Source: Gemmatimonadota bacterium (GTDB lineage Bacteria; Gemmatimonadota; Gemmatimonadetes; Palauibacterales; Palauibacteraceae). Taken from it: a stretch of DNA of 37,527 nucleotides. The stretch lies in contig JAKSCH010000050.1 of NCBI GenBank assembly GCA_022360695.1, positions 1 through 37,527 of the forward strand, written 5' to 3'. The notes beneath the pieces were generated by a model. It was given only the letters and a program-made list of their open reading frames with translations. It did not search any database and was not told the DNA's origin. Below, piece after piece: positions 6,253 through 27,136 of this stretch. The position numbers were made by a program, and so were the translations under genes. The stretch's first letter is position 1, and each line of letters opens with the position of its first letter.

Positions 6253-6406
6253 GCCCGGCCTGGCGAGGTGGCCGGCGCAAGGGGGGCGTGCGGTCGATCC
6301 GTCGTCTCTCCTCCTCGAAGTAGGGCTGCCACTCCTTCGTCGTCGCTCCTAGGCCGAACCGCACGAGACCCTGCGCGCGATCCGCCGGGGTTCTTCCGCA
6401 GCCTGC
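6253..6406 (-). repeat. Degenerate solo half-copy of the structured palindromic element
   Basis: 6296-6406 aligns with 27026-27136 (88 of 112 columns identical by manual alignment), with weaker similarity back to 6253/26985. It contains the conserved core at 6301-6351 on the minus strand. Confidence 0.8.
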
Positions 6407-6545
6407 TGCGGTCTGCAACGTGTGCAAGAGCCTGAAGCGCTTTGCACCGAGCGGGAAGCGGACGGACCTCGCGCGTCCCGGTCTCCGGAGTCGTAAGAGG
6501 TTGGCTCAGATCGCATTGAGCACGGCGCGCCGGAGCGATCGACGG

Positions 6546-6561
6546 GGGCTCGATAGTTGCG
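6546..6561 (+). promoter_or_regulatory. Putative sigma54 promoter for minor pilin operon 1
   Basis: GGGCTCGATAGTTGCG gives GG-N10-GC with TTGC. A TGCAACGTGTGCA dyad lies about 130 bp upstream, near 6414-6426. Confidence 0.5.
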
Positions 6562-6687
6562 AATTCGACATCGTTCGATCGGCCGAATCACCAGACCCGA
6601 TCGACCGATTCGAAAGATGGCGGGGACGATCCCGGAGGATCGGGAGATCCGAGCACGGAGGCGCCGGCGCGCGTGAGGGATTCCGAG

Positions 6688-7323
6688 ATGAGACGAACGG
6701 ACGGACGGACGTTACACGTCCGCTCCACGATGGGAGAGCGACGCGAGGCGGGCTTCACGCTCGTCGAGATGCTCATCGTGATGACGTTGGTGGGCACTGC
6801 GGTCGGCTTCAGCATCGAAGGCTTTCGGAACTTCCGCGAGCAGCAGCGCGCCAAGTCCAGCACCGTCGAGCTCGTGACCGTGCTGAACATGGCCAAGTCG
6901 AGGGCCGTCTCGATGAACGAGATGATCATCGTCGACTTCGCGCCGGGCGCGCTCAGTCCGACCGTCGACGCGTTCTATGAGGTCTATCTCGACATCAACG
7001 ACAACTTCACGCGCGACAGCGGCGAAGTCATCGCGGCGAATCTCGCGAACGCGACGTCAAACGGCAGCATCGTCGGCTACCAATTGGGTGCCGAGATGCT
7101 CTTCGGACAGCCGAGCGGAACCTCGAGCGGACCGCTCGGCATCCCGACGACCGTCGACGGCGTCACCTTCACGAACAACGAGATCGCTTTCTTCCCCGAC
7201 GGCACTGCGTTCGAGGCCGGACTTCTGACCTTCATGGATCCCGAAGAGCGCACGTACGGCGTAACCGTCACCGCCGGTGGGGCCATCCGAATGTACCGAT
7301 GGACCGGCTCCGTATGGCAATGA
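6688..7323 (+). CDS. FimT/FimU (GspH-like) minor pilin
   Basis: Class III signal peptide EAG|FTLVEMLIVMTLVG, 'LNMAKSRAVS' helix and C-terminal 'IAFFPDG...VTVTAGGAIR'. Start is uncertain (6673, 6688 or 6730). Confidence 0.85.
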   Translation: MRRTDGRTLHVRSTMGERREAGFTLVEMLIVMTLVGTAVGFSIEGFRNFREQQRAKSSTVELVTVLNMAKSRAVSMNEMIIVDFAPGALSPTVDAFYEVYLDINDNFTRDSGEVIAANLANATSNGSIVGYQLGAEMLFGQPSGTSSGPLGIPTTVDGVTFTNNEIAFFPDGTAFEAGLLTFMDPEERTYGVTVTAGGAIRMYRWTGSVWQ

Positions 7324-7736
7324 ACACGAGTCCAACTATGGAACGGAACGCGAAGCGCGGAAGCGAAGGCTTCACGCTCATCGAGGTCGGTGTGGCGGTC
7401 GCCCTGTTTTCGATCGTGCTCGTAGCTGCGGGGGGTATGCTCTCGGCGATTTCGACCGGGAACGCCCACACGCAAGTCAAGACGACCGGCACGTTCCACA
7501 TGCAGCGCCAAGTGGAGCAGCTGTACGAGACGGACTACGACTCGCTTCCCATGGGGAGCGCGCAGGCGGACACCACATTGCCCAACAGCGTGGTCTTACG
7601 CGCGTCATGGGTCGTTTCCGAACCGGTGGTCGACAAGCTCAAGCAAGTGGATCTCACGGTTCGCAGCCTGCCGAAGTTCCCCGGTGGCTACGAACGGGCG
7701 GTACGCCTGTTCATCGTCAACCGGGACCCTCCTTGA
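7320..7736 (+). CDS. PilV-like minor pilin
   Basis: SEG|FTLIEVGVAVALFSIVL prepilin motif. ATGA overlap with the upstream stop. Confidence 0.82.
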   Translation: MNTSPTMERNAKRGSEGFTLIEVGVAVALFSIVLVAAGGMLSAISTGNAHTQVKTTGTFHMQRQVEQLYETDYDSLPMGSAQADTTLPNSVVLRASWVVSEPVVDKLKQVDLTVRSLPKFPGGYERAVRLFIVNRDPP

Positions 7737-7779
7737 TTTGGAAAGCGAAGCGGTACTGCGCATAGAGGCGGACAAGCGA

Positions 7780-8661
7780 ATGAACCACGCACGAGCGAAA
7801 CGAGCGCGGGGGTTCACCCTCGTCGAGATGTTGATCGCACTCGTGATGTTCTCCGTGATCGGGCTCGCGGCCACGAACTTCATGATGAAGCAGAGTCAGT
7901 TCATGGGGCGAACCTCGGAGGTCGCTTCGGCCCAGCAGGGTGTTCGAGCGGCGGCGGATCGGATCGCCACGGACGTACGGGTCGTTGGTCAGGGGCTGAA
8001 CTTCTACCAGATCCAGCTCCCGGACATGATCGTTCCGAACGACGGCACGGTGGGGGTCAACGTGCACCAGTCGAACGCGATCAGTCTGATCGGGATTCCC
8101 GACCCGACCGACCCGTCGAACCAGCTCGCCATGGCGTCCGGCGTCGTCGGAAACGGCGATGTGGGTGACACGCAGATCACGGTCGACAGCACCGCGAACC
8201 TCACCGGTCTCGCGATTGGCGAGCGCCTGATCCTCTACGACCCGAACAGCGGCAACAGCCAGGTCGTGGCGCTGACGGGGATCGTCGGGTTCGATCTCCA
8301 GTTCACGGGCGACACGCTGATCTATCAGTTCCCGGCGGGCGGAACGACGCCGGCGCGCGCGATCAAGCTCAACGAGGTGCGGTACCGGCAGCGAACGGTG
8401 GGCGGTACGCCGTTCCTGGAGCGAAAGGTCAACCGGGACGCTTGGCAACGGTTCATCGATGGCATCGTCACGCTCGACTTCAAGTATTACGACCCGACCG
8501 GGACCGAGATGACCAGCATCACGACCAAGACGCAGCGTCGAAACATCCACGAGGTTCGTGTCGAGGTCGAAGGCATCCAGCTACGGCTGGGCTCGGGCGG
8601 TGAGAACCGGGCGCATGTGAAGTACAGATCGAGTGCCGTACCCAGGAACATGATTCCGTAG
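7780..8661 (+). CDS. PilW-like minor pilin
   Basis: ARG|FTLVEMLIALVMFSVIG, 'AQQGVRAAADRIATDVRVVG' and C-terminal 'PRN' are typical of PilW/GspJ-like proteins. Confidence 0.85.
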   Translation: MNHARAKRARGFTLVEMLIALVMFSVIGLAATNFMMKQSQFMGRTSEVASAQQGVRAAADRIATDVRVVGQGLNFYQIQLPDMIVPNDGTVGVNVHQSNAISLIGIPDPTDPSNQLAMASGVVGNGDVGDTQITVDSTANLTGLAIGERLILYDPNSGNSQVVALTGIVGFDLQFTGDTLIYQFPAGGTTPARAIKLNEVRYRQRTVGGTPFLERKVNRDAWQRFIDGIVTLDFKYYDPTGTEMTSITTKTQRRNIHEVRVEVEGIQLRLGSGGENRAHVKYRSSAVPRNMIP

Positions 8662-8721
8662 GCGCACGGACCGAAACGTGGGGAACGGTCGCTGTCGACC
8701 GAGGCCAGGAAGCTTGAGACT

Positions 8722-10485
8722 ATGAACAGGACAAATTTGGTAATACGTGCGCTCGACGAGCTACGGAAGCCGCTCAGGGACGAGCGGGGCGGTGCGATCA
8801 TCATGGCGATTCTCGTCTCGATGGTCGTACTCGGAGCGGGCGCCCTCGCCCTGACCGTGTCGCGAAACGACATGAGGATCACGGCGAATCACAACCGTGG
8901 CGTGCTCGCCAAGTACCATGCGGAATCACAACTCCAGCGCTCGATCGGTCTCCAGAACGATCTGACGCAATCGCCGCGCTGGCTTCGCGATGGCGCGAAC
9001 TACGCGTACCGGGCTACAGGCGTCGGAGACACGTCCCGAACGGTTCCACAAACCGCCAACGCACCGTTCGCGGGTGGAACCGCATCCGATGGGACGGTCG
9101 AGATCCGTGTGATCGACAAGGATCCGGTCACCGAGACGGCGCCGTACACGATCCAGGCGCGGTCACAGCTCGCGGACGGTAGCTCGGCCACGTATCAAGC
9201 CGTGGTGGACGTCCTGAGTCTCTTGGATTTCGCCGTGTTCTCGGATAGCGACATCAACGTCGGTGGAAATATCACCATCTCGGGTCGCATGTACGCCGGC
9301 GATGACATCACGCTATGGGGGACGAACGCGAACTTCCTCCAGCGCGTCGAATACGTGGACCAGCTCAATAATCCGTGGAACGGGACCTTCTTCCAGGGGA
9401 GCGAGCAGGTCGAGCCACTGCCGTCGATCTCCGCGTTGACGAACCTCGACTTCTTCGAGAACGCCTCGAAGAACGCCGGGGTATGTACGTCCGGCATCGG
9501 GATCTACATCGGCGACGACAACCCGGTCGCCGCGGCGCAGACGGCCGCGCTTTTCACCGCCTACGAGGGGAGCAGCCCGGCGAACAGCGCGAGCTGGGGC
9601 GCGAACCAGGCCGCTTGCCGCACCGGCACGCCGTGCTACGCGCTCGACATGACGTTGTTCGACTTCTCGGCCACGCCGATCACGTATGGTGGCAACGTCG
9701 TCGTCGACTTCAGCGGCAACCCGATCACCAACTTCAACGGGGTGATCTGGGCGGATGACGAGATCCACGTCTGGGGGCACCTCGGTGGACGCTCGATCGA
9801 GGAGAACACCGTCACCGACACCGAGGGCTATATCAACCCGCCGTTCGCTTGGCCGAACGTCTACAGCAACAATCGCCTCGACCCGGGTGAGGATGGAAAC
9901 AACGGCGGCATCGTCAACGGGATATTGGACCCGGGCAATCGCGGTGCGAACCTCGGAATCTACACCGATTCTATGATGGTGATCGACCACAACATCTGGG
10001 CGGGGACCGACGTGAACGGCGAGCCCGTCCGAATGGCGTTGGTTGCCCGCCAAAACGTCCGTATCGACGCGTACTCCCCGCTGATCATGGTGGTCGAGGC
10101 CGCGACGCTGTCGGTGACCGCTCGTTGGGATCCGCAAGGATCGCACAGCGACCACCAGCCGAACCACTGGACGAACGTCAACGGCGATCAGCCGCCCAAC
10201 ACGTACCAGTGGGACCTCGACTACGACGGCGTCATCGAGACGAACAACGGGTACGGTTGGGCCGACCGCGACGAGACCGATGTGTACTGGGCTGCGGGTC
10301 TGCTCAACCTGGGGAACCTCGTCTCGGCCACGAACCCCGTCTCCGGGCACTGGGCGAGCATGGGTCACCCGCGATTCTACACGTACGACACGCAGCTCCA
10401 GACGGCCGAGATCCCGTGCTACCCGACGTTGCCCAACTACGGGATCGTACCGGGGTCCTTCACCGAAGTGCTGAACGCCCCGTGA
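8722..10485 (+). CDS. PilX/GspK-like minor pilin with a large C-terminal domain
   Basis: DERG|GAIIMAILVSMVVLGAG (no Glu5, as in PilX) and 'AKYHAESQL', followed by an N/G/D/T-rich extracellular-type domain of roughly 400 aa. Confidence 0.8.
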   Translation: MNRTNLVIRALDELRKPLRDERGGAIIMAILVSMVVLGAGALALTVSRNDMRITANHNRGVLAKYHAESQLQRSIGLQNDLTQSPRWLRDGANYAYRATGVGDTSRTVPQTANAPFAGGTASDGTVEIRVIDKDPVTETAPYTIQARSQLADGSSATYQAVVDVLSLLDFAVFSDSDINVGGNITISGRMYAGDDITLWGTNANFLQRVEYVDQLNNPWNGTFFQGSEQVEPLPSISALTNLDFFENASKNAGVCTSGIGIYIGDDNPVAAAQTAALFTAYEGSSPANSASWGANQAACRTGTPCYALDMTLFDFSATPITYGGNVVVDFSGNPITNFNGVIWADDEIHVWGHLGGRSIEENTVTDTEGYINPPFAWPNVYSNNRLDPGEDGNNGGIVNGILDPGNRGANLGIYTDSMMVIDHNIWAGTDVNGEPVRMALVARQNVRIDAYSPLIMVVEAATLSVTARWDPQGSHSDHQPNHWTNVNGDQPPNTYQWDLDYDGVIETNNGYGWADRDETDVYWAAGLLNLGNLVSATNPVSGHWASMGHPRFYTYDTQLQTAEIPCYPTLPNYGIVPGSFTEVLNAP

Positions 10486-10835
10486 TGGACGCGGACGACG
10501 TCCAGCTCGATCCCGTCGCCGAGACGCCGGTTCGCGATGAGTCGCCCCTTCTGAAAGGGGCGATCATCGCGTCTCTGTTGGCCTTCGTGGCGATCATCTG
10601 GTTCGCGCCCCGCGGAGGCGACGCGAGCCCGCCGCCGGGCTCGCTCGCTGATCCGCACGGAGCACCCGCCGACCCGGCGTCGGATACGGCGTACTCGGGA
10701 TACAGAGGGCCCGGCCCTCGCTTCGCCGAGCCACGGACGCCGCCTCTGAGCCCATACGAGGAAGCCCAGCGGTGGGCGGAAGGTGAGGAGGATGAGACGC
10801 CTCCGACGGACGCCGAGGCGCCGCCGACCCTCTGA
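10485..10835 (+). CDS. Hypothetical single-pass membrane protein with an acidic/Pro-rich tail
   Basis: ATG overlaps the stop of the PilX-like gene (TGATG). TM segment GAIIASLLAFVAIIWFAP. Confidence 0.6.
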   Translation: MDADDVQLDPVAETPVRDESPLLKGAIIASLLAFVAIIWFAPRGGDASPPPGSLADPHGAPADPASDTAYSGYRGPGPRFAEPRTPPLSPYEEAQRWAEGEEDETPPTDAEAPPTL

Positions 10836-10887
10836 TCTCCATACGCCACGCCCTCGTCGTTTGCCTGGCGTCGGCGGGGCGGTGTAT

Positions 10888-11054
10888 CTAGTGGGGTGCA
10901 TCAAACGTCCCTTGCCATTCGAGCGGCGATGCATCCCGCTCGCCGGCGTTGCTCGATCTCGACGTAGCTATGGCTACGCCTTCGTTCTCGCGCCTTGGCG
11001 AGCGGGCGCCTCTCCACTCTCGGTGGTCAAGGGACGTTTGATGTACCACACTAG
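10888..11054. mobile_element. 167-bp MITE-like palindromic element bounded by CTAG
   Basis: 27-bp terminal inverted repeats at 10888-10914 and 11028-11054 (2 mismatches), each ending in CTAG. Inner stem CCCGCTCGCC/GGCGAGCGGG and central hairpin CGTAGC-TATG-GCTACG (10963-10978). No transposase. Confidence 0.75.
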
Positions 11055-11060
11055 GTGGGC

Positions 11061-11495
11061 ATGACCGGGCCCATCCCCGACCTTTCGGGCACCCTGCAGG
11101 AGCGCCTGCCCGTCCTCGAGACGCGGCTCGGTCGACCGGTAGCCGATCGGACGTCGGGCGCGGATCGGTGGATCCTGTACGAGGGGGACGGTTGGTCGCT
11201 GCGGCTACGCGCCCGCGCTTCGCGAGAAGGGGAAGACGCACGCGTCCGCTCGTGGACCGTGACCTTTGACGAGGGGTTCGAAACGCTCTCTCAGGCGTGT
11301 ACCGCGCTCGGTCTTCCCGCCGTCGTGGCGGAAGAGGTGGCCCGAGGGGATCACGCGTCGCTGCGGGCGCCGCTCTCGAGCGACGCCCGTGGGGCCGTCT
11401 GCTCGTTGACCGCCCTACGACGGGACGGACGGGTTCGATCGGTGACGGTCTTCGACGAGGCACCCGACTGGGGGCCCGAGGACACGAGCTCATGA
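11061..11495 (+). CDS. Hypothetical protein translationally coupled to pilS
   Basis: Globular-looking 144-aa ORF whose TGA overlaps the pilS ATG (ATGA). Alternative GTG start at 11055. Confidence 0.6.
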   Translation: MTGPIPDLSGTLQERLPVLETRLGRPVADRTSGADRWILYEGDGWSLRLRARASREGEDARVRSWTVTFDEGFETLSQACTALGLPAVVAEEVARGDHASLRAPLSSDARGAVCSLTALRRDGRVRSVTVFDEAPDWGPEDTSS

Positions 11496-13297
11496 CGTCG
11501 GAAGACCTTCGCGACGGGGGCGCCCGCACAGAGCCGCAGCGGGTTCTCTATTGGATCTACGCGAGCCGACTCACCGTCGCGGCGTCGATCTACGGCGTGG
11601 CGCTGTTCGTCGGCGAGGAGCCGCTGTTGCCAGGCGTGCTTTCGGCCTTCGACGTGCGCCCGCTCGCGCTCACGATGCTCCTCATCATCGTCCTGCTCAC
11701 CGCCCTCTCGTATTGGTGGAGCCATCGCCAACGGGTTCGGGCGTCGCCGCGGTTCTTCTACGCCCAGGCCACGCTCGACGTGTTGCTGGTGAGCGGAATC
11801 ATCGTATTGACGGGTGGAAGCGAGAGCGTCCTCCCACCGCTCCTGTACATCGCGCTCGTCTCGGGCTATGCGCTGATCCTGACCGTGTCGGCGGGGGTGC
11901 TGATCGCCGTGCTCACCGGCGCGTGCTACCTCGGTGTCGTCGCCCTCGCGTACCCGGATCAGTTCGGGCTCGGCGTCCTCCTCCAGACCGGGATCTTCAC
12001 GGTCGTGGCCCTCGTCAGCGGGTTCGTCGGCGGCCGCCTTCGTCAGGTCGACGATCGGTTGAGCAGTCTGGAAGGCGAGCTCCACCGCCTCCGGTTCGGT
12101 ACGTCCGACATCCTGCGGACGATCGAAGCCGCGGTCATCACGGTCGACGAGGAGCAGCGCGTGGTCTATCTGAACCCCGCCGCGGGGAGCCTGTTCGATC
12201 TCAACGCGGACGAGTGGATCGGCAAACCGGTCGACGACGCCTTCGGAGAGCGCGCTCCCGGGATCCTCGACTCGTTGCGAGATACGCTGGAGCTGCGAGA
12301 GCCGGTGCGAGCGCGCGACATCGAAGTCGATTCGCCGGAGCACGGAACGATTCCGTTCTCGGTGTCTTCCGCGCTGCTTCAGCGCGAGGGAGCCCCGACG
12401 CTGGCGACCATCGTGCTCCAGGACCTTCGCATGGCGCGGCAGCTCGAGGAGCTCCATCTCCGAGCCACACGGCTCGGCGTGGTCGCCGAGTTGTCCGCCT
12501 CGCTGGCGCACGAGATCAAGAACCCGCTGGCGTCCATCCGTAGCGCGATCGAGCAGATCGCGGATCCGTCCGCCGATGCCGGAGATCGGCGCACCCTATC
12601 GCAGCTCGTGGTGCGCGAGACCGATCGCTTGTCGCGACTGCTCGGGGAGTTCAACGACTTCGCGCGGGTCGACGTAGCCGAACGCAAACCGATCGATCTC
12701 GACCAGTTGATCCGCGACGCGGTGGCGATGGTGGCACAAAGCCCGGAAGCACGCGACCGCGCGACGTTCGATATCGAGGTGGCTTCCGGGCTTGACGATC
12801 TCTGGGGAGATCCGGACCTTGTCCACAGGACGCTGGCGAACCTGTTGCTCAACGCGGTTCAGGTCAGCGATCCGAACGGAACCGTCACCGTCCGCGTGAT
12901 CGCGGATGCGCTGCGCTCGGGGTACACGCCGGCAGGCATGAGCTCGGGCGTGCCGGTGCGGGTTCGGGTCATCGACGACGGGCCGGGGATCGACCCCGAG
13001 GACGTCGCGCGTGTGTTCGACCCGTTCTATACGCGACGGCAAGGGGGGAGTGGGATGGGGTTGGCGATTGCGCATCGCGCCGTTCAGGCACACGGCGGAG
13101 CTCTGCTGGTGAGCTCGACGCCGGGTCAGGGTGCCACCTTCGCGATGATCCTACCCCGCCGCGAGCCTTCTGCTCGGCAGGCGTTCGACGAGCTGGCCGG
13201 GGACGAGCCTCTATCCGATCGGCTCGGCCTCACGGATTCGGAACGAACTTCGGAGGCATCCGCCACCCTCGACGGGTTCGCGGATCGACTGGGATGA
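11492..13297 (+). CDS. pilS: PilS-like sensor histidine kinase (TM region, PAS, HisKA, HATPase)
   Basis: About 6 TM helices with 'LTGGSESV..LY', a PAS-like segment (YLNPAA), H-box LAHEIKNPL, N-box NLLLNA, DDGPGI, FDPFYT and GSGMGL. It lies next to pilR and pilA. Confidence 0.88.
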   Translation: MTSEDLRDGGARTEPQRVLYWIYASRLTVAASIYGVALFVGEEPLLPGVLSAFDVRPLALTMLLIIVLLTALSYWWSHRQRVRASPRFFYAQATLDVLLVSGIIVLTGGSESVLPPLLYIALVSGYALILTVSAGVLIAVLTGACYLGVVALAYPDQFGLGVLLQTGIFTVVALVSGFVGGRLRQVDDRLSSLEGELHRLRFGTSDILRTIEAAVITVDEEQRVVYLNPAAGSLFDLNADEWIGKPVDDAFGERAPGILDSLRDTLELREPVRARDIEVDSPEHGTIPFSVSSALLQREGAPTLATIVLQDLRMARQLEELHLRATRLGVVAELSASLAHEIKNPLASIRSAIEQIADPSADAGDRRTLSQLVVRETDRLSRLLGEFNDFARVDVAERKPIDLDQLIRDAVAMVAQSPEARDRATFDIEVASGLDDLWGDPDLVHRTLANLLLNAVQVSDPNGTVTVRVIADALRSGYTPAGMSSGVPVRVRVIDDGPGIDPEDVARVFDPFYTRRQGGSGMGLAIAHRAVQAHGGALLVSSTPGQGATFAMILPRREPSARQAFDELAGDEPLSDRLGLTDSERTSEASATLDGFADRLG

Positions 13298-13351
13298 CGA
13301 CAGCCGCGCGCGTCGGCGGACGCGCTGCGCGCTAGGGGGAGGAGTGGATTC

Positions 13352-14899: not shown

Positions 14900-14997
14900 C
14901 AACCAGCCCCGTGCGTGAGGCGGAGTCCACCAAATCGGCGGCTCCGATGCTCGGAAAGATCGCCCCGGGTATCAACCAATTGTAAAGCGAGGGACAG

Positions 14998-18903: not shown

Positions 18904-18943
18904 CAAAGGCCGGAGGCTGCGGGCGGTTTCTCGAGAGGTCACG

Positions 18944-20169: not shown

Positions 20170-20260
20170 CGGATCGGTGATGAGGATGAAGGGGTCGTAC
20201 GGGGGCGGGGTGATCCGCGGGAAAGCGCGCCAGGTAGCGAAAAACCGGCCAAGTGTGGGT

Positions 20261-20289
20261 TTGACACCACGATGCCGCGTTCCTACCTT
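20261..20289 (+). promoter_or_regulatory. Putative sigma70-type promoter of pilMNOPQ
   Basis: TTGACA-17 bp-TACCTT, 51 bp upstream of the pilM ATG. Confidence 0.65.
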
Positions 20290-20340
20290 CAGCCGTCCCG
20301 CCATATCTCGTCCGTGGCAACCAATTAACGGACGAAACTG

Positions 20341-21387
20341 ATGCTGCGATTTGGGTTTGGGCGGAGGAAGACGACGGTTGGGCTGGATGTCGGCAGCGGC
20401 TTCATCAAAGCGGCCGTCATCGATCACAGCAAAGACATTCCGCAACTGGCCAAGGTCGCCGTAAGCCCCCTCGAGGGGGACGCGATCGTGGACGGCGATA
20501 TCGTCGATCCCGGTCTCGTCGCCGATGCCATCTCGTCCATGTTCGAGCGCGAGAAGATCGACCAGCGCGACGTCGTGATCGGTGTCGGCGGGCGCGATGT
20601 GATCATCAAGCTCATCAAGATGGATCGCATGGACGAGGAGGAAGCCCGCGAGGTGATCCCGTGGGAGGCCGAGCAGCACGTGCCGTTCGACATGGACAAC
20701 GTCCAGCTCGACTTCGAGATCACCGACCCGGACGGCGATGGCCTCCAGATGACCGTCTTACTCGTCGCCGCGAAACGGGAGCTCATCGAGACGCGCATCT
20801 CGCTCCTCCAGCAGGCGGGTCTCAATCCGACCGCGGTGGACGTCGAAGCCTTCGCGCTTCACAACGCCCTCGAGGTGAACTACCCGAGTGCCATGGAGGG
20901 CGTCACGGCACTGGTCAGCATCGGGAACGACACCACCACGGTGAACGTGCTCGACGACGGGGTCCCGGTGCTCACTCGCGACCTCAGCTTCGGGACACGG
21001 GGGCTCATCCTCGATCTGCAGCGCGAGCGCTCGCTGACGGCGGAGCAGGCACAAGCCGCGCTCCGCGGCGAAAGCGGCGACGCCAGCCTTCGAGAGTTCC
21101 TCGCGGAGCGTGCGCAGGAAGTGGCGCGTGGCGTGGAGCGAGCGGCCGCGTTTCTCGAGACCGATGAGATCGGGCTCGGCGTCGCGCGTTTGTACCTGTG
21201 TGGAGGTGGCGTCGGGATTGCGGGGCTGTCGGAGATCCTCGCCGAGCGTCTCGGTGTCGAGACGCACATCGCGAGCGCATTCGAGCGAGTCCAGGTGAAG
21301 GCGGACGCGATCGACTTCCTGGAGCTGCAGGAGATGGCGCCGATGCTGATGCTCTCGGTCGGGTTGGGGCTCCGGAAGGCTGCCTAG
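20341..21387 (+). CDS. pilM: Type IV pilus assembly protein PilM
   Basis: VGLDVGSG, WEAEQHVPF, VLLVAAKRE, VDVEAFAL, LYLCGGG and SVGLGLR (actin-like fold). Confidence 0.95.
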   Translation: MLRFGFGRRKTTVGLDVGSGFIKAAVIDHSKDIPQLAKVAVSPLEGDAIVDGDIVDPGLVADAISSMFEREKIDQRDVVIGVGGRDVIIKLIKMDRMDEEEAREVIPWEAEQHVPFDMDNVQLDFEITDPDGDGLQMTVLLVAAKRELIETRISLLQQAGLNPTAVDVEAFALHNALEVNYPSAMEGVTALVSIGNDTTTVNVLDDGVPVLTRDLSFGTRGLILDLQRERSLTAEQAQAALRGESGDASLREFLAERAQEVARGVERAAAFLETDEIGLGVARLYLCGGGVGIAGLSEILAERLGVETHIASAFERVQVKADAIDFLELQEMAPMLMLSVGLGLRKAA

Positions 21388-21435
21388 GTCGGTCACCGTA
21401 AACGGGCGGACGAGGATCGGGGGACGAGTAAGCGG

Positions 21436-22122
21436 ATGATCGAAGTCAATCTACTACCGGATTCACAAGGGTCCCGTGGTGGTGGGAAACGCGCCAAGAA
21501 GAAGGGTGCCGGACCATCGCTCGGCGGGGGCCTCGGCCTGGCGGGGAAGGGTGGGAACCCGTGGAGCACGGCGTTGCTCCTCGCGGGACTCGTCGTTCCG
21601 CTCGCCGCGGGCTTTCTCTGGTGGTCGCAGCGCTCGAGTGCCGCGAGCCTCCAGACGCGACTCGATTCGGCGACCGCGGATTCGGCCCGGCTCGCCGAGC
21701 TTCGGCAGGTCAGCGATAGCCTCACGGCCCGTCGCACCGAGATCCGAGACCGCGTGGCCCTCGTCGAGCAGCTGGATCGCAACCGGTTCGTCTGGCCGCA
21801 CATGATGGACGAGATCAGTCGCGCGGTGCCGCGAATGGCGTGGCTCAGCTCGCTCCGTCAGACGGCGCCGCTGCCCGACGTCGGCGTGCAGATCCAGGGC
21901 ATCGCCGCGAATCCGTTGGCGATTACGGAGTTCGTACGGAACCTCGAAGCGTCCGACTACATCACGGACGTTCGCATCCTGGGCTCGCAGCGTCAGGGGC
22001 TCGAAGCGGACGGCGACAATACGATCGCGGCGCAGAGCTTCACGCTGACGGCGCGGTTCGCCGAGCCCGAAGGAGGTGCAATGCGGACCGAGCCGATCAT
22101 CGCGAACACGGGAGGCGGATGA
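21436..22122 (+). CDS. pilN: Type IV pilus assembly protein PilN
   Basis: MIEVNLLP PilM-binding motif, TM helix, coiled coil and 'WPHMMDEISRAVP..AWL'. Confidence 0.92.
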   Translation: MIEVNLLPDSQGSRGGGKRAKKKGAGPSLGGGLGLAGKGGNPWSTALLLAGLVVPLAAGFLWWSQRSSAASLQTRLDSATADSARLAELRQVSDSLTARRTEIRDRVALVEQLDRNRFVWPHMMDEISRAVPRMAWLSSLRQTAPLPDVGVQIQGIAANPLAITEFVRNLEASDYITDVRILGSQRQGLEADGDNTIAAQSFTLTARFAEPEGGAMRTEPIIANTGGG

Positions 22123-22715
22123 TGGCGCTGTTGCCGCAGGATCCGAGCGACCAATACAAGATGCTCGGCGTCATTCTCCTCTTGGCGCTGGGCGCGGTCT
22201 TCTACCTGTACGCGTGGAGCCCGAAGAGCGAGGAGCTCGCGGAGCTCGAGCAACGGATCGAGCAGATCGAGCAGGCCAACACGCTCGCCGAGGCTCGCAC
22301 GCAGAACCTCGATACGGTGCGCGAAGAGCTCGAGCTCGGGGAGCGGCAGTTCGCCATGCTCCAGAGACTCGTACCCGCCGAGGGCGAGGTCCCCGCGATC
22401 TACGAGGCGATCGCCTCCGAGACACAATCGCTGGGCCTCGATCTCATCAACGTCGCACCGAGCGAGCCCATGCCGGATTCGGCCGCGTATTTCCTACGAC
22501 AGAACTGGGACATGCAGCTCGAGGGCGAGTACCACGACGTAGGCCAGTTCCTGACGCGCGTCGCGAGCTTCACCCGGATCGTTCGCCCCGACGTGTCGGA
22601 GATTCGACCCGCGGGAATCACGAACTCCGGGCGACAGATGGTGCTGGCCCGCTTCAGACTCGAGACGTTCGTTCTCCCGCCCGACGGGGGCGCGACGCCT
22701 ACGGAGGGCGGATGA
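22122..22715 (+). CDS. pilO: Type IV pilus assembly protein PilO
   Basis: TM helix, coiled coil, 'RLVPAEGEVP' and 'GEYHDVGQFLTRVASFTRIV'. Start overlaps the pilN stop. Confidence 0.9.
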   Translation: MALLPQDPSDQYKMLGVILLLALGAVFYLYAWSPKSEELAELEQRIEQIEQANTLAEARTQNLDTVREELELGERQFAMLQRLVPAEGEVPAIYEAIASETQSLGLDLINVAPSEPMPDSAAYFLRQNWDMQLEGEYHDVGQFLTRVASFTRIVRPDVSEIRPAGITNSGRQMVLARFRLETFVLPPDGGATPTEGG

Positions 22716-23155
22716 TGAAGAGGACGTGTGGAAGGGGCCAGCGAGGCCTGCCGCTGGCCGCGTGCGGGCTCGCCGTAGCGGCCGCGTTCGTCACGACGGC
22801 GGCACGAGCCGAGGCGCAGACCCCGGTGTCGACGGTGTACGAGCGGGAGGTGTTCACGTACCCGTCGTTCGGCCGCCGCGACCCGTTCCGCCCGCTCAAC
22901 GCAGGCGAACAGCTCGGGCCTCGCTTCGAGGACCTGACGCTGACCGGCGTGTTGTACAACCCGACGATCGGCAGCGTCGCGACGCTGATCGACGACAAGA
23001 CGGGACGCCGGTATCGCTCACGAGAGGGCGACGCGCTCGGAGAGATCCGAGTCGCGGCGATCCGATCGGACGAGGTGGACTTCGTGATCACGAGCTTCGG
23101 CATCAGCCGACGTGAGACTTTGACGGTCAAGAAAAACAAGGAGATTGAGGGATGA
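22715..23155 (+). CDS. pilP: PilP-like protein
   Basis: Signal peptide, 'Y...GRRDPFRPL', 'LTLTGVL' and 'REGDALG'. Located between pilO and pilQ. Confidence 0.75.
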   Translation: MKRTCGRGQRGLPLAACGLAVAAAFVTTAARAEAQTPVSTVYEREVFTYPSFGRRDPFRPLNAGEQLGPRFEDLTLTGVLYNPTIGSVATLIDDKTGRRYRSREGDALGEIRVAAIRSDEVDFVITSFGISRRETLTVKKNKEIEG

Positions 23156-24960
23156 TCGCTCGATCCATCCTCGCCTTTGCGCTGGCGGCGTGGTTCGGAG
23201 GAGCGCCCTCCGACCTCAGGGAAGTTCAGATCGCGCCGGCTGGTGCAGAGACCGAGATCACCGTCGTGGTCGGTGGTGACATCACCCCGCACCACTTCAT
23301 GCTCGCGGACCCGCCCCGCCTGATCCTCGACGTCGAGGGCGCGACCCACGATCTGGAGCGACATAGCTACGAAGCGATCGGGCGCGGCGGCGTGATCCGG
23401 ATGCGCACGAGCCAGTTCCGACCCGATGTCGTGCGGCTGGTCTTCGATCTGACGCGGGAGCTCGAGTACGCCGTCGAGAAAGCCCAGGGCAAGGTCCGGG
23501 TCACGTTCGAGAACCCGGGCGAGTCGTTCTCGCGCTGGTCGACGCAGCCCGGAGCGGCCGCGGCCATCGACCTGACGGGAGCGAGCCCGACGGGTCGCGA
23601 CATGCCGGCCGCGAACCCGGCGCCGGACGCTGCCGCGGCTCTGGCCGCCGTGCAGCAGGCCCAGCCTCGCATCTCCGTCGCCTACGACAGCGCGAGCATG
23701 CTCGACGTGCTGGCCGGATTCTCCGAGTTCGCGGGCGTGTCGATCGTCCCGAACGGCGACGCCGCGTCGGTCATGGTCCGAGGCATCGACATCAAGAACC
23801 AGCCTTGGGACGTGGCGCTGAGCGCGATCCTGTCGGCGCAGAACCTCGGCTGGCAGACTTCGGAGAGCGGGATCATCGTCGTGGATCTTCTGGAGAACCT
23901 GAAGACGCGCGACGAGCTCCTCACCGAGACCCGCGTCATGCGGATCAACTACGCCAGCGCCGACTCGGTGGCGCTGGCGCTCGAAAAGCTCGTCACGCCG
24001 GAGCGCGGCCAGGTAGTCGCCTACTCCGGGACGAACTCGATCATCGTCACCGACGCGCCCTCGGTGGTGGCGCGGATGGACACGCTCGTCACTTCGCTCG
24101 ACAAGCGGATGCCGCAGGTAGCGATCGAGGCCAAGATCGTCTTCGTGGACCGCACCGACGTCCAGGAGATGGGCATCGTCTACGACCTCAAGGAACGCGA
24201 GGGCGGGTTCGTCGAGCAGGGGATCAACCCCGAGATCTCGGTACCCGACCCCAACGAGCCGCCGCAGCTCGTCGACACGGACGGCGACGGCGTGCCCGAC
24301 CAGGCGTTCTTCAAGCGCACGAACGAGACGCTCGTGAACCTGGGCGGTGACGCGATCGCGGCGCTCGCGAACGCGAACGATCGAGTCACGTCGCCGGCGC
24401 TGTCGATATTGACCGCCGTGACGTTCGGTGAGTTCTCGCTGTTCTCGTTCATCGAGGCGCTCGAGTCGCACCAGCTGTCCGACGTCCAGGCGGCCCCGTC
24501 GATCCAGGTGGTCGACAACGCGAAGGCCCGTATCCAGGTCGGTGAGCGGACGCCGATCCGCGTGCTGGAGCGCGGGGCGCAGAGCGAGGAGGCGACGATC
24601 AACGTGCAGTTCGAGGATACCGGTATCATCCTCGAGGTTCAGCCGCACGTCACGAACAACAACCAGATCCTCCTCGCGCTCTCGGCGGAGCGGTCGGGTC
24701 TCCAGGTCGGTCTCTCGGACGTCGGGTTCGTGTTCGAGAAGCAGATCGGCGAGACGACGCTGCTGCTCGACGACGGAGAGACGGCGGTGATCGGCGGGCT
24801 GACCTTGAGCGAGGTGAGCCGTAGCGAGAGTGGGGTGCCCGGTCTCATGAACATCCCGCTGCTCGGAAACCTGTTCCGGACCACGAAGGAGAACGAGGTC
24901 AAGCAGGATCTGATCATCCTCGTTACGCCGCACGTGATCATGCCGCGCGAGCTGCCGTAG
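23152..24960 (+). CDS. pilQ: Type IV pilus secretin PilQ with an N-terminal AMIN domain
   Basis: AMIN domain (LADPPRLILDV, VVRLVFDL), PWDVAL, QVAIEAKIV, TGIILEVQPHV, DGETAVIGGL and VPGLMNIPLLGNLF. Confidence 0.95.
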   Translation: MIARSILAFALAAWFGGAPSDLREVQIAPAGAETEITVVVGGDITPHHFMLADPPRLILDVEGATHDLERHSYEAIGRGGVIRMRTSQFRPDVVRLVFDLTRELEYAVEKAQGKVRVTFENPGESFSRWSTQPGAAAAIDLTGASPTGRDMPAANPAPDAAAALAAVQQAQPRISVAYDSASMLDVLAGFSEFAGVSIVPNGDAASVMVRGIDIKNQPWDVALSAILSAQNLGWQTSESGIIVVDLLENLKTRDELLTETRVMRINYASADSVALALEKLVTPERGQVVAYSGTNSIIVTDAPSVVARMDTLVTSLDKRMPQVAIEAKIVFVDRTDVQEMGIVYDLKEREGGFVEQGINPEISVPDPNEPPQLVDTDGDGVPDQAFFKRTNETLVNLGGDAIAALANANDRVTSPALSILTAVTFGEFSLFSFIEALESHQLSDVQAAPSIQVVDNAKARIQVGERTPIRVLERGAQSEEATINVQFEDTGIILEVQPHVTNNNQILLALSAERSGLQVGLSDVGFVFEKQIGETTLLLDDGETAVIGGLTLSEVSRSESGVPGLMNIPLLGNLFRTTKENEVKQDLIILVTPHVIMPRELP

Positions 24961-25031
24961 CGGACGCGGAGCGCCGGGTCGACCGGACCCGGCGCTCGGC
25001 TTGTTCCGTAGGGCGAGCGCCCTCAGTTTCG

Positions 25032-25061
25032 AGGCCCGGCCGAGCGCCGGGCCTTTTTTTT
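25032..25061 (+). terminator. Rho-independent terminator after pilQ
   Basis: AGGCCCGGC-CGAGC-GCCGGGCC followed by T8. A further 12-bp hairpin lies at 24969-24997. Confidence 0.88.
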
Positions 25062-25122
25062 GTCCGGACGCGACGTCCGAGCCGCGACCGCCGAATCGAG
25101 TCACGAGATCGGATACCAATCC

Positions 25123-26331
25123 TTGAGGCGTATACAGCTGACAACCGCGGGCGAGTCGCACGGACCCGCGATCGTGTCGATCCTCGCCGGGATGCCGGCC
25201 GGTCTCCCCCTCGGCCCGGATGACGTGGCTCGCGAGCTCGTCCGACGGCAGGGCGGGCACGGCCGGGGTGGCCGGATGATGATCGAGGACGACGTGGGCG
25301 AGATCTTCGCCGGGGTCCGTCTCGGCCAGACGATCGGCGGTCCCATCGCGATCCGCATCCCGAACCGCGATTTCCGGAATTGGACCGAGGCGATGGCGGT
25401 CGAGGCGCCCCGGACGGAGGACGAGGAGCTGCTCCGCCGCGTCCACCTGCCGAGACCGGGGCACGCGGACCTGGTCGGGATGATCAAGTACGGGCGCGAC
25501 GACGCGCGCGACATCCTCGAGCGCGCGAGCGCGCGTGAGACCGCCGCACGGGTCGCCGCGGGGGCGATCGCGAAACGTCTCCTGGAGGAGTTCGGCGTCC
25601 GCGTGGAGAGTCACGTCGTGCGGATCGGGCCCGTCGCGGCGGATCCACCGCGCCGGCTCCCTGACGACATCGAGTCGACGGCCGATGCCTCTCCGGTTCG
25701 GTGTCTCGACGAAAGCGCGGCCGACCGAATGGTCGAGGCCATCGACGAGGCTCGGCGCGCGGGCGACTCGCTCGGGGGGGTGTTCGAGGTCGTAGCGCGT
25801 GGCCTTCCGGTCGGGCTGGGCAGCCACGTGAGCGGTGACTCGCGACTGGGAGGGCGGATCGCCGGGGCGCTCATGTCCATCCATGCGATGAAGGGCGTCG
25901 AGATCGGCATGGGATTCGAGGCGGCAGCTACGCTGGGCTCGGGTGTGCACGATGAGATCGAGCGCGATCCGAGCCGCGCGCGGACCGGCGGCTACCGACG
26001 TCGTCGCAACAACGCGGGTGGCCTGGAGGGCGGCATCACGACGGGGGAGCCGGTCGTGGCGCGCGTGGCCATGAAGCCGCTGAGCTCGCTCCGTCGGCCG
26101 CTCGACAGCGTCGACACGCGGACGGGGGAGCCGGCGAAGGCGATCCGCGAGCGGAGCGACGTCTGCGCGGTCCCGGCGGCGGCGATCGTGGGCGAGGCGA
26201 TGCTCGCGCTCGTGTTGGCGGATGCCTGGATCGAGAAGTTCGGCGGGGATTCCCTCGAAGAGATGCGCGCGAACTTCGACGCCTACCTCGCTCGTCTCGC
26301 GCCCCCGGAGACGGAGTCGCCCGAGGGGTGA
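25123..26331 (+). CDS. aroC: Chorismate synthase
   Basis: TAGESHGP, RRQGGHGRGGRM, PRPGHADL, ERASARETAARVAAG, NNAGGLEGG and ERSDVCAVP. Probable TTG start at 25123. Confidence 0.96.
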   Translation: MRRIQLTTAGESHGPAIVSILAGMPAGLPLGPDDVARELVRRQGGHGRGGRMMIEDDVGEIFAGVRLGQTIGGPIAIRIPNRDFRNWTEAMAVEAPRTEDEELLRRVHLPRPGHADLVGMIKYGRDDARDILERASARETAARVAAGAIAKRLLEEFGVRVESHVVRIGPVAADPPRRLPDDIESTADASPVRCLDESAADRMVEAIDEARRAGDSLGGVFEVVARGLPVGLGSHVSGDSRLGGRIAGALMSIHAMKGVEIGMGFEAAATLGSGVHDEIERDPSRARTGGYRRRRNNAGGLEGGITTGEPVVARVAMKPLSSLRRPLDSVDTRTGEPAKAIRERSDVCAVPAAAIVGEAMLALVLADAWIEKFGGDSLEEMRANFDAYLARLAPPETESPEG

Positions 26332-26849
26332 TCGAGGCCGTTCGTAGCGTGTGGCTGGTCGGCTTGTCGGGCTCCGGGAAGTCGACGACCGGTCCGCTGG
26401 TGGCCGATCGGATCGGGTTCGACTTCGTCGACCTCGATGCCCAGATCCAGCGGAAGACCGGCGAAACGATCCCTCAGATCTTCCGTACGGGCGGAGAGCC
26501 GCGGTTCCGCCGGCTGGAGGCCGCGGCGACGAGCGAGATCGCCACCCTGGCCGGCGTGGTCGTGGCGACGGGCGGAGGCTGGATGGCCCGGTCGGACGTG
26601 GAACGTGTCGGGGAGGGCCGCGTACGAGTTTGGTTGCGCGTCAGCCCGGAGGTCGCGATCCATCGGCTGGGCGACGGCGTCGGGAGCGGCCGACCGCTCC
26701 TCGACGCTCCGGACCCCGAGGCGGCGCTTACGGCGCTCTACCGGGCCCGAAAGCCGGCGTACGCCGAGGCGGAGCTGTCGGTCGAGACGGACGGTCGGTC
26801 GCCGGTTGAGGTTGCGGAGGAAGTCGTCCGGAGGTTAGAAGGGTGTTGA
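26328..26849 (+). CDS. aroK: Shikimate kinase
   Basis: GLSGSGKST, DLDAQI, GEPRFRRLE, VVATGGG and RPLL. The stop codon lies inside the left inverted repeat of the downstream element. Confidence 0.93.
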   Translation: MIEAVRSVWLVGLSGSGKSTTGPLVADRIGFDFVDLDAQIQRKTGETIPQIFRTGGEPRFRRLEAAATSEIATLAGVVVATGGGWMARSDVERVGEGRVRVWLRVSPEVAIHRLGDGVGSGRPLLDAPDPEAALTALYRARKPAYAEAELSVETDGRSPVEVAEEVVRRLEGC

Positions 26850-27136
26850 AGAAGTACGGCGGGTCGCGTTCCGAGCGCCACGGCCCCGGATCCGAGGCAG
26901 AACGGCGCAGGCATAGCCAAAGCTACGTCGAGCCGGTCGAACGACGGAGACGGGGCCGTGCCGCCGGAACCGGGCGGCACGGATGCCCGGGCAACGAGGT
27001 GAACGGCGCATGGGTGTCGCGGATTGATCCGTCGTCGTTCCTCCTCGCCGTAGCGCTGCTACGACTCGTCGTCTCTCCTTGCCTGAACCACGCGAGACCC
27101 ATGCGCGCGACCCGCCGTACTTCTTCAACACCCTTC
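26838..27136. mobile_element. 299-bp MITE-like element with perfect 31-bp terminal inverted repeats
   Basis: GAAGGGTGTTGAAGAAGTACGGCGGGTCGCG (26838-26868) and its exact reverse complement (27106-27136). It encloses two oppositely oriented structured cores and a hairpin GTGCCGCC/GGCGGCAC. No transposase and no clear target-site duplication. Confidence 0.8.

What the first reader, a model, noticed from the sequence alone, without database searches (positions are those of the whole stretch)
6301..27080. Four copies of a fixed-spacing structured non-coding core shared by three otherwise different intergenic elements
Seen in sequence, all written in the same orientation. A (rc 10945-10996): AAGG CGCGAGAA CG AAG GCGTAGC CATA GCTACGT CGAG ATCGAGC AACGCC. 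B (+26894-26945): GAGG CAGAACGG CG CAG GCATAGC CAAA GCTACGT CGAG CCGGTCG AACGAC. C (rc 27031-27080): AAGG AGAGACGA CG AG TCGTAGC AGC GCTACGG CGAG GAGGAAC GACGAC. D (rc 6301-6351): TAGG AGCGACGA CG AAG GAGTGGC AGC CCTACTT CGAG GAGGAGA GACGAC. The consensus is NAGG-N8-CG-(N)AG-[7-bp stem, 3-4 nt loop]-CGAG-N7-RACGMC. Spacer lengths are conserved while spacer sequences vary. The hairpin is largely kept through compensatory and G-U/G-T changes that pair best on one strand. Each core sits at the tip of a long closing stem whose sequence differs between A, B and C/D. Inference: this is a single-stranded RNA or ssDNA structure recognised by a protein, such as a transposase/HUH nuclease or an RNA-binding factor. 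It may be an uncharacterised mobile or regulatory repeat family rather than decayed IS ends. I cannot assign it to a named Rfam or ISfinder family.
Basis: partly seen in the sequence, partly recalled or inferred. Interest (0 to 1): 0.9.

Follow-up and report, generated by a model that had tools for sequence, protein, structure and literature searches.

The report
Structured core of Gemmatimonadota IS630-type MITEs
The four look-alike motifs are copies of the folded central module of small non-coding jumping elements that spread through this bacterium and its phylum, a new but recognisable kind of bacterial repeat whose conserved fold still lacks a known job.

Summary
The interpretation needs sharpening. 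A (10888-11054, minus) is one of at least 58-66 copies of a 167-nt element in this draft genome, a Candidatus Palauibacter-like member of Gemmatimonadota. B and C are the two arms of a single 299-nt element with perfect 31-nt terminal inverted repeats. D is a decayed relative of the C arm.

Both element types are flanked by CTA|...|TAG. Their ends resemble, in places over 21 identical bases, the ends of IS630-family (HTH + DDE_3) insertion sequences of the same genus. They are therefore IS630/Tc1-mariner-type MITEs that target the TA in CTAG. In this genome the target is often a gene's TAG stop codon.

The shared core is not the transposase site. It is an internal rod-like hairpin carried between at least three or four different kinds of ends. 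A covariance model finds it in 28 of 36 genomes of the genus and in 18 of 151 sampled genomes of the phylum. Twenty-four of 27 base pairs show double compensatory changes. Conserved tandem G·A pairs and a G·U pair favour one strand.

No Rfam family matches. There is no HUH/RAYT link, no orientation bias and no RNA data. The function of the core remains inferred.

The parts
10888..11054 (-). A-type MITE, 167 nt including the CTAG at each end. The element proper is 10891-11051, flanked by TA at 10889-10890 and 11052-11053.
   Evidence: The boundaries are shared by 20 aligned copies whose flanks are unrelated. There are 66 BLAST hits in the genome, 41 of them cut by contig ends. In DNA contigs of public runs the loose ends fall exactly at 10887/10888 and 11054-11059.
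11028..11054 (-). Terminal inverted repeat at the 5' end of the sense strand: CTAG TGTGGTACATCAAACGTCCCTTG.
   Evidence: Inverted repeat I4. It shares CATCAAACGTC and the CTAGTGT start with the ends of IS630-family ISs of the genus.
10888..10914 (-). Terminal inverted repeat at the 3' end of the sense strand.
10945..10996 (-). Core A. The apical hairpin is 10962-10979. A closing stem lies at 10935-10944 / 10997-11007.
   Evidence: CM R1 scores 77.2 bits.
26838..27136 (.). BC-type MITE, 299 nt, lying between aroK and topA.
   Evidence: Perfect 31-nt TIRs (I3). Related copies in G001, G004 and G017 are flanked by CTA|GAAG...CTTC|TAG. The aroK-topA spacer of three Palauibacter relatives is short and lacks the element.
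26838..26868 (+). Left TIR of the BC element.
   Evidence: I3.
27106..27136 (-). Right TIR of the BC element.
   Evidence: I3.
26894..26945 (+). Core B (hairpin 26911-26928), starting 56 nt from the left end.
   Evidence: R1 scores 56.9 bits.
27031..27080 (-). Core C (hairpin 27048-27064), starting 56 nt from the right end, in inverted orientation to B.
   Evidence: R1 scores 54.9 bits.
6264..6400 (-). D: a decayed remnant of a BC-type element. It keeps the inner half of the TIR, the C-type arm and the central part. The B arm and the outer TIR are lost. It lies between pilC and the pilin genes.
   Evidence: 79.4% identity over 126 nt to 26995-27117. The sequence was compared by eye.
6301..6351 (-). 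Core D (hairpin about 6318-6334, weakened: one C.C and two G.T).
   Evidence: R1 scores 57.6 bits. The fold z-score is only -1.3.

Best explanation
The four cores are homologous copies of the conserved apical domain of non-autonomous IS630/Tc1-mariner-type transposons (MITEs) of Gemmatimonadota. The elements are moved in trans by IS630-family transposases (HTH + DDE_3). These bind the terminal inverted repeats and insert into the TA of CTAG. Because the element begins with G and ends with C, CTAG is rebuilt on both sides, so a gene's TAG stop codon survives an insertion into it. This part is shown or strongly implied.

The core is not a transposase site. It is an internal module of about 70 nt, part of a conserved inner region of about 115 nt, that travels between ends of several different sequence classes. 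It folds as a rod on one strand: closing stem, AA bulge, GGCG/CGCC, a CAA bulge, a helix of C-G pairs alternating with tandem G.A/A.G pairs, and a 7-8-bp hairpin closed by G.U. The pairing is maintained through many compensatory changes. This part is shown.

How the core works is inferred. My preferred reading (about 0.35) is that it acts in RNA. Most copies in this genome sit directly behind a gene's 3' end and would be read through, so the purine-rich rod would be a protein-recognised or nuclease-resistant 3'-UTR structure that makes insertions tolerable or useful. The BC type carries one core in each direction, so either transcript contains a sense copy. A DNA-level fold-back role in transposition is nearly as likely (see rivals).
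For: MITE identity.
- There are 66 BLAST hits of A in G000: 18 complete and 41 cut by contig ends.
- The end motif CTAGTGTNGTG occurs 55+63 times against 2+2 for the reversed control.
- In 20 aligned copies the flanks are unrelated outside CTAG...CTAG.
- BC-type copies in G001, G004 and G017 are flanked by CTA|..|TAG.
- The aroK-topA spacer lacks the element in 3 of 3 relatives.
- An IS in G000:C426 encodes HTH_29/HTH_32 + DDE_3 and has ends CTAG|TGTCTTGTCCCAGAAAT.
- ISs of the genus have ends CTAGTGTCGTGTCCCGGAAAT, which are identical over 21 nt to MITE ends in L012 and over 20 of 21 nt in L007 (L007 starts CCAG). Other genus ISs end in ...CATCAAACGTC..., as in A.
- IS630-family elements duplicate TA, and IS630 prefers CTAG (PMC2170065: passages read, plus the title of its reference b29).

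The core is internal and modular.
- None of the 30 IS loci holds the core hairpin.
- The 71 distinct cores sort as follows: 27 lie between CTAGTGT-type ends at fixed distances, 10 have one such end, 13 lie in BC-type arms, and 21 lie in other contexts. The last group includes a third end type (GCAGTCCGTGGATGAATCC) and tandem arrays.

Distribution.
- R1 hits 28 of 36 genus genomes.
- R1 hits 18 of 151 phylum genomes, in 13 of 82 genera.

Structure.
- On the 71 distinct sequences, 78.8% of cells are paired against 60.4% when shuffled.
- 24 of 27 pairs carry double changes.
- The covariation score is 0.409 against 0.127 (0 of 500 shuffles reach it), and the slid controls are <= 0.094.
- An independent RNAalifold run on 24 full elements gives 36 of 46 predicted pairs with compensatory changes.

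Strand asymmetry.
- Tandem G.A/A.G sits at two adjacent pairs in 58 and 55 of 71 sequences.
- G.U or U.G sits at the hairpin base in 50 of 71.
- Overall there are 134 G.U against 56 A.C.
- The sense strand folds better in 62 of 71 sequences with RNA parameters and 63 of 71 with DNA parameters.

Position.
- 54 of 65 element-gene junctions in G000 lie at a gene's 3' end.
- In 30 of the 65 the gene's TAG is the CTAG target (the gene calls come from my own crude ORF/GC3 filter).
Against: - No RNA data exist for these organisms in the runs on offer, so transcription of the elements is assumed, not seen.
- No sigma-70-like promoter was found in A or BC.
- Orientation is neutral. At 3' ends in G000, sense equals the gene strand in 30 cases and is opposite in 24. 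In relatives the split is 14 against 15 at 3' ends and 17 against 14 at 5' ends. A strictly sense-specific RNA function acting on neighbouring genes would predict a bias in old copies.
- In relatives, insertions are as often at 5' as at 3' ends (31 against 29).
- No IS with the exact A1 or BC ends was found in G000.
- The TA duplication was inferred from flanks. No exact empty site was recovered (one search showed no joint).
- Alignment A2 was fitted to the model's structure, and the sequences are related, so the covariation statistics are inflated.
- Within-family double changes in the TIRs point to DNA fold-back rather than RNA.
Confidence: 0.8

Rival explanations
1. DNA-level fold-back. The whole 167-bp element folds back or extrudes as a hairpin or cruciform. 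This brings the two ends together for a transposase that could hardly synapse the ends of so short a stiff duplex. The conserved apex nucleates the fold or binds an architectural protein.
For: The entire element, TIRs included, is one rod. Length is 166-168 nt in 27 of 29 full copies from very different subfamilies. Within the recent burst in G000, three TIR positions show complementary double changes at the two ends. They include a singleton C-G to G-C, which separate binding of each end does not predict. Orientation is neutral towards genes and GC skew, as expected for a DNA-level role. The apex is the most A+T-rich part of the core. Correia elements carry a central IHF site thought to help transposition (PMC2229807, passages read).
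Against: In a cruciform both strands must fold, and the antisense strand would carry tandem pyrimidine mismatches where the sense strand has G.A. Selection for extrusion should favour perfect pairs, yet the G.A and G.U positions are the most conserved. Tc1/mariner/IS630 cleavage needs no hairpin intermediate (PMC2170065, passage read). The BC type has two cores 56 nt inside each end rather than one central apex.
Confidence: 0.3
2. No function. The core is an inherited palindrome kept complementary by a mutational process: snap-back of single strands followed by mismatch correction. Its wide occurrence reflects recent horizontal spread of the MITEs together with their ISs.
For: Double changes occur even within the 95-97% identical burst, alongside G.T and mismatched intermediates. 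Distribution in the phylum is patchy (18 of 151), and a copy from another family scores as high as copies from the genus (G113, 88.1 bits), which suggests transfer. No orientation bias of any kind was found.
Against: A correcting process should erase mismatches. Instead the same G.A/A.G and G.U positions, the AA and CAA bulges, and the sequence CGAGGAGGAGCAACGCC persist across classes whose TIRs and stems have diverged completely. The module is kept while the ends are exchanged among at least 3-4 classes.
Confidence: 0.15
3. An independent small RNA gene or regulatory RNA family with its own promoter, merely embedded in repeats.
For: The fold is strand-asymmetric with RNA-typical G.U and tandem G.A. 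Sequence in the non-helical positions is conserved.
Against: No promoter-like site was found, and there is no U-tract terminator on the sense strand. Copy number ranges from 0 to more than 58 between species of one genus. 50 of 71 cores lie inside recognisable TIR-bounded elements. No syntenic single-copy progenitor was seen.
Confidence: 0.07
4. One reading: a single-strand element moved by an HUH enzyme (REP/REPIN with RAYT, or an IS200/IS605-type PATE).
For: A hairpin containing GTAG and a strand-asymmetric fold.
Against: The elements have TIRs and symmetric CTA|..|TAG flanks. The one Y1_Tnp gene in G000 has no core in the 1.4 kb shown around it. Orientation against GC skew is 23 to 24. The ends match DDE_3 ISs.
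Confidence: 0.03

Closest known systems
RUP (repeat unit of pneumococcus), the IS630-Spn1-dependent MITE of Streptococcus pneumoniae
   Same: A short non-coding element of about 100-170 bp in roughly a hundred copies. Its TIRs resemble those of an IS630-family IS of the same host, and it inserts at TA (PMC2229807, passages read).
   Different: Different sequence, different phylum, high G+C. The target is CTAG and often the TAG stop codon. The internal module is conserved across a phylum and shared between several TIR classes, which the passages I read do not report for RUP.
Correia/NEMIS elements of Neisseria
   Same: TA-flanked MITEs of about 105-155 bp. Their transcripts form long hairpins, and they carry an internal functional motif (an IHF site). 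RNA hairpins affect neighbouring mRNAs through RNase III (PMC2229807, passages read).
   Different: No sequence relation. Here the internal motif is a hairpin that covaries, not a duplex protein site. No RNase III or IHF evidence exists here.
bcr1 (Bacillus cereus group) and CIR (Caulobacter/alpha-proteobacteria) repeats
   Same: Interspersed repeats whose RNA fold is kept by compensatory changes (bcr1; PMC3184786, passage read). CIR is conserved between species and has an exposed conserved motif (PMC2229807, passage read).
   Different: Their ends and target duplications differ (5-bp direct repeats for bcr1). No IS630 link is reported in the passages read. No GA-rich rod.
REP/REPIN-RAYT and IS200/IS605-derived PATEs
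   Same: Structured palindromic repeats whose fold matters on one strand.
   Different: They have no TIRs or TA duplication and are moved by HUH Y1 enzymes. These defining features were tested here and not met.

Membership tests
MITE of the IS630/Tc1-mariner superfamily | Short, non-coding, multi-copy, at varied genomic sites | tested here: met
   The elements are 167 nt and 299 nt. There are 66 hits in G000 with unrelated flanks. Lengths vary by 1-2 nt between subfamilies, so no reading frame is kept.
MITE of the IS630/Tc1-mariner superfamily | Terminal inverted repeats | tested here: met
   A: about 27-36 nt at 83% (I4). BC: 31 nt at 100% (I3).
MITE of the IS630/Tc1-mariner superfamily | TA target-site duplication (CTAG preference for IS630 itself) | tested here: inconclusive
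   CTAG stands on both sides in 18 of the 19 copies with both ends readable (pair 1-4/164-167). BC-type copies are flanked by CTA|..|TAG. No exact empty site with a single TA was recovered, so the duplication is inferred.
MITE of the IS630/Tc1-mariner superfamily | Ends resemble those of an autonomous IS630-family IS in the same lineage | tested here: met
   ISs with HTH + DDE_3 have ends CTAGTGTCGTGTCCCGGAAAT, which are identical over 21 nt to MITE ends in L012 and over 20 of 21 nt in L007. Other IS ends read CTAGTGTCATGTCACACATCAAACGTC, against CTAGTGTGGTGCATCAAACGTC in A. No IS was found for the BC-type ends.
MITE of the IS630/Tc1-mariner superfamily | Mobilised in trans by the transposase | not testable with these tools
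   This needs a transposition assay.
REP/REPIN with RAYT | REP palindromes flank or accompany a Y1 (RAYT) gene; no TIR or TSD | tested here: not met
   G000 has one PF01797 hit, with no core in the 1.4 kb shown around it. The elements have TIRs and CTAG flanks.
IS200/IS605-type PATE | Sub-terminal hairpins on one strand, no TIR, strand-biased insertion | tested here: not met
   TIRs are present. Orientation against contig GC skew is 23 to 24.
Any Rfam 15 family | Score at or above the family's gathering threshold | tested here: not met
   0 matches at gathering scores. At E <= 10 there are 6 weak matches, none at the four sites.

The most novel reading that the evidence does not exclude
The ~70-115-nt rod is a mobile structured nucleic-acid module in its own right. 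On this reading a dedicated, still unknown Gemmatimonadota factor recognises it through the invariant G.A/G.U/bulge signature. The module has repeatedly swapped its IS630-type ends (at least 3-4 end classes, single and double-core architectures, tandem arrays). It would then be a bacterial counterpart of a passenger ncRNA or SINE-like domain that rides on transposon ends, rather than inert filler between TIRs.
Probability: 0.2. Interest if true: 0.75.

Novelty: new variant of a known kind. Interest (0 to 1): 0.45.

Why it matters
Bacterial MITEs are usually defined by their ends, and their interiors are treated as filler. Here the interior is the conserved part. It has a fixed length and covaries. 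It is strand-asymmetric and is kept across a phylum while the ends change. That makes it a clean natural test case for what, beyond transposase sites, a non-autonomous element needs in order to persist.

There are practical consequences too. The family explains much of the fragmentation of this MAG: 41 of 66 copies sit at contig ends. It marks a precise insertion habit (the TA of CTAG, frequently the TAG stop codon) that annotation pipelines for high-G+C genomes could recognise. And it supplies a candidate structured motif for Rfam-type curation in a phylum that has almost no cultured members.

Tried and rejected
- Rfam: no match at gathering scores or at E <= 10.
- K-turn reading of the hairpin base: rejected by inspection. 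The 5' strand lacks the G-A after a 3-nt bulge. The motif list is recalled and comes from no call.
- Integron attC reading: rejected by inspection. No GTTRRRY/RYYYAAC boxes are present; the consensus is recalled.
- CsrA-type GGA sites and CcrM GANTC sites: present only in some subfamilies, so dropped.
- Coding potential: dropped, because lengths differ by 1-2 nt between subfamilies.
- Internal promoter: none found. One weak terminator-like site lies on the antisense strand of A only, and by inspection of the alignments it is not conserved in other subfamilies.
- Replication-strand bias: none.
- RNA evidence: no RNA holder was listed among 6 runs from 2 studies. The DNA contigs laid showed no joint across the element, so no empty site was obtained. 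Parts of the stretch had no cover.
- Viral contigs: one pattern scan gave 2 matches. Both lacked the hairpin and look like chance matches in coding-like sequence.
- Plasmid collection: no match for A or BC.
- Search for the autonomous partner: no IS with the exact A1 or BC ends among 30 DDE_3 loci of the genus, nor among the 4 of 6 loci I examined (L190-L193) from three other genomes.
- Literature: four searches and one on CTAG/stop codons listed no description of these elements. Only listings and the passages named in the report were read.

Full report
**Observation.**
The four sequences are present exactly as quoted. Each caps a longer stem. The sense strands fold better than dinucleotide shuffles: z = -5.7, -6.9, -3.8 and -1.3 for A, B, C and D. 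A loose pattern for the consensus found 30 sites in the 3.99-Mb draft genome, against 6-7 in three Markov simulations. Outside family A, only B, C and D are convincing. So the motif is real. In this genome the B/C/D versions occur only in this window.

**What the elements are.**
A is a 167-nt repeat bounded by CTAG on both sides (10888-11054).
- BLAST finds 66 hits of at least 60 nt in the genome: 18 complete and 41 cut by contig ends.
- The end motif CTAGTGTNGTG occurs 118 times, against 4 for its reversed control.
- Twenty aligned copies share nothing outside the CTAGs.
- In public DNA contigs, unrelated sequence is joined exactly at 10887/10888 and 11054-11059, and the summed depth over the element far exceeds that of its flanks. 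That depth is not a copy number.

B and C are not separate elements. They lie 56 nt inside the two perfect 31-nt terminal repeats of one 299-nt element. D is 79% identical over 126 nt to the C arm and keeps only the inner half of the terminal repeat. The 'three elements' are therefore two families: the A type and the BC type, the latter with one decayed remnant.

**Organism and context.**
The nearest TopA loci are MAGs named Candidatus Palauibacter, of Gemmatimonadota. The window holds a type IV pilus cluster: pilB, pilT and pilC, then D, then pilins, then A, then pilS/pilR. Further on come aroC and aroK, then the BC element, then topA. Three relatives have a short aroK-topA spacer without the BC element.

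**Mobilising system.**
The genome has one IS630-family IS (HTH_29/HTH_32 + DDE_3). Its ends read CTAG|TGTCTTGTCCCAGAAAT.... In the genus, 9 of 36 genomes hold DDE_3 genes. Their ISs are all flanked by (C)TA..TA(G). Their ends are either CTAGTGTCGTGTCCCGGAAAT or CTAGTGTCATGTCACACATCAAACGTC. The first is identical over 21 nt to the A-type end in L012 and over 20 of 21 nt in L007. The second shares its start and CATCAAACGTC with A of this window.

BC-type copies in three other genomes are flanked by CTA|GAAG...CTTC|TAG. IS630/Tc1-mariner elements insert into TA and duplicate it without a hairpin intermediate. IS630 itself prefers CTAG (PMC2170065: passages read, plus the title of its reference b29). 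Both families are therefore IS630-type MITEs. The exact partner IS for the A1 and BC ends was not found.

**The core is an internal, exchangeable module.**
None of the 30 IS loci contains it. Cores of different families are linked by intermediates:
- a BC-type element in G001 carries an A-like core;
- the B arm in G004 nearly equals the A2 core of this genome.

A covariance model built from 14 cores finds the module in 28 of 36 genomes of the genus. The model also finds it in 18 of 151 sampled genomes of the phylum, in 13 of 82 genera.

The 71 distinct cores sort as follows:

| Context | Count |
|---|---|
| Between CTAGTGT-type ends at fixed distances (49-51 and 45-46 nt) | 27 |
| One such end only | 10 |
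| BC-type arms | 13 |
| Other contexts, including a third end class, a fourth in G146, and tandem arrays of 174- and 177-nt period | 21 |

Full A-type elements measure 166-168 nt in 27 of 29 cases, although their arms have diverged beyond recognition.

**Structure.**
From the outside in, the rod consists of:
- a variable closing stem;
- an AA bulge;
- GGCG/CGCC;
- a CAA bulge;
- seven pairs in which C-G pairs alternate with tandem G.A/A.G, replaced in other copies by U-A/C-G and similar pairs;
- a further G.A/A.G next to the hairpin;
- a 7-8-bp hairpin closed by G-C and G.U.

On the 71 sequences, 78.8% of cells pair against 60.4% after shuffling. Twenty-four of 27 pairs show changes on both sides. 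The covariation score is 0.409 against 0.127, reached by 0 of 500 shuffles, and the slid controls are at most 0.094. The same held for the 14 seed sequences. This alignment was fitted to the model and the sequences are related, so these figures are generous. As an independent check, RNAalifold on 24 full elements predicts one rod with 36 of 46 pairs compensated.

The fold is strand-specific:
- G.A/A.G occupies two adjacent pairs in 58 and 55 of 71 sequences;
- G.U or U.G closes the hairpin base in 50 of 71;
- there are 134 G.U against 56 A.C overall;
- the sense strand is the more stable in 62 of 71 sequences with RNA parameters and 63 of 71 with DNA parameters.

**Where the elements land.**
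I used a crude ORF/GC3 gene caller that reproduces the Pfam-supported genes of the window. In G000, 54 of 65 element-gene junctions are at a gene's 3' end, and in 30 of the 65 the gene's TAG is part of the CTAG target. Because the element starts with G and ends with C, the stop codon is rebuilt.

Orientation is neutral:

| Comparison | Split |
|---|---|
| G000, 3' ends: sense same as gene vs opposite | 30 vs 24 |
| G000, against contig GC skew | 23 vs 24 |
| Relatives, 3' ends | 14 vs 15 |
| Relatives, 5' ends | 17 vs 14 |

**Function.**
What is shown: a transposon-borne, strand-asymmetric fold that is maintained while the ends change.

What is inferred: the molecule in which it acts. I favour RNA, at about 0.35, for four reasons. 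Copies sit behind stop codons and should be read through. G.U and tandem G.A are typical RNA features. The BC type offers a sense core in either direction of transcription. And there are precedents in bcr1, NEMIS and ERIC (PMC3184786 and PMC2229807, passages read).

Against this reading, there is no orientation bias, no promoter and no RNA data.

A DNA fold-back that helps a 167-bp element bring its ends together is nearly as likely, at about 0.3. It is favoured by the fixed length and by complementary double changes at three TIR positions within the recent burst, one of them a singleton. It is weakened by the conserved purine-purine positions, which would be pyrimidine mismatches on the other strand.

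A purely mutational upkeep of the palindrome (about 0.15) does not explain the conserved non-canonical positions and bulges. The HUH/RAYT idea is contradicted.

**Comparison and novelty.**
The nearest known kinds are RUP (an IS630-dependent MITE), Correia/NEMIS, bcr1 and CIR. No Rfam family matches. The plasmid records give no match. The one viral-contig pattern scan gave only 2 matches, both lacking the hairpin and looking like chance. Five literature searches listed no description; supplements and ISfinder could not be consulted.

I file this as a new variant of a known kind. It is an IS630-type MITE whose conserved part is an internal structured module shared between end classes and kept across a phylum. 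It is interesting for MITE biology and for annotating high-G+C genomes. It is not the categorically new system that the first score implied.

Noticed in passing
G000 genome-wide (e.g. C80:10285, C208, C478); window 26835-26849: In 30 of 65 element-gene junctions, the TAG stop codon of the neighbouring gene is the TAG of the CTAG insertion site, and the element's terminal G/C rebuilds it. In the window, aroK instead runs 4 codons into the BC element and stops at a TGA inside the left TIR.
   Followed up: partly
G000: pairs 12/156, 15/153, 19/149 of the 167-nt element in 20 complete copies: Complementary double changes between the two terminal repeats occur within a 95-97% identical burst (CG16/TA4; CG19/GC1; AT10/CG4/GT2 plus 4 mismatched). 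Separate transposase binding at each end does not explain this.
   Followed up: partly
G000: C420:4912, C491:1115, C513:8360, C517:164, C261:3467, C527:10711, C440:661: Mini or footprint-like forms that keep only the ends of the A element (about 17-52 nt between CTAG-like ends). They are possibly deletion derivatives or excision scars.
   Followed up: no
G000: C179:5859-6042, C319, C446; C294:11763-11968, C363:19125-19330: Subfamilies with an extra 17-nt hairpin inserted in the 3' strand of the core (replacing CAA), or with an insert of about 40 nt in the 3' arm.
   Followed up: no
L177 (G190:C1:1303700-1304450), L187 (G120:C1:1659983-1660529): Head-to-tail arrays of core-bearing elements with periods of 174 and 177 nt and a third end type, GCAGTCCGTGGATGAATCC. 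In the closed genome G190 the strands of the 16 hits look clustered by chromosome region (list). This was not tested.
   Followed up: no
window 24987-25059 (+): A weak SorX-like Rfam match (29.3 bits, below the gathering score of 46.6). It is a hairpin followed by a U-run, so most likely just an intrinsic terminator between ORF 23152-24960 and aroC.
   Followed up: no
window 37335-37359 / 37459-37483: A 25-nt inverted repeat, 92% complementary, with arms 99 nt apart, near the end of the window. It is unrelated in sequence to the MITEs.
   Followed up: no
G000:C426 about 5900-6800 (minus), beside the IS630-family IS: A second long open reading frame lies directly downstream of the IS630-type IS (sequence seen; a 313-aa ORF is listed at L013:380-1321). 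It was not scanned against any protein library and not analysed further.
   Followed up: no
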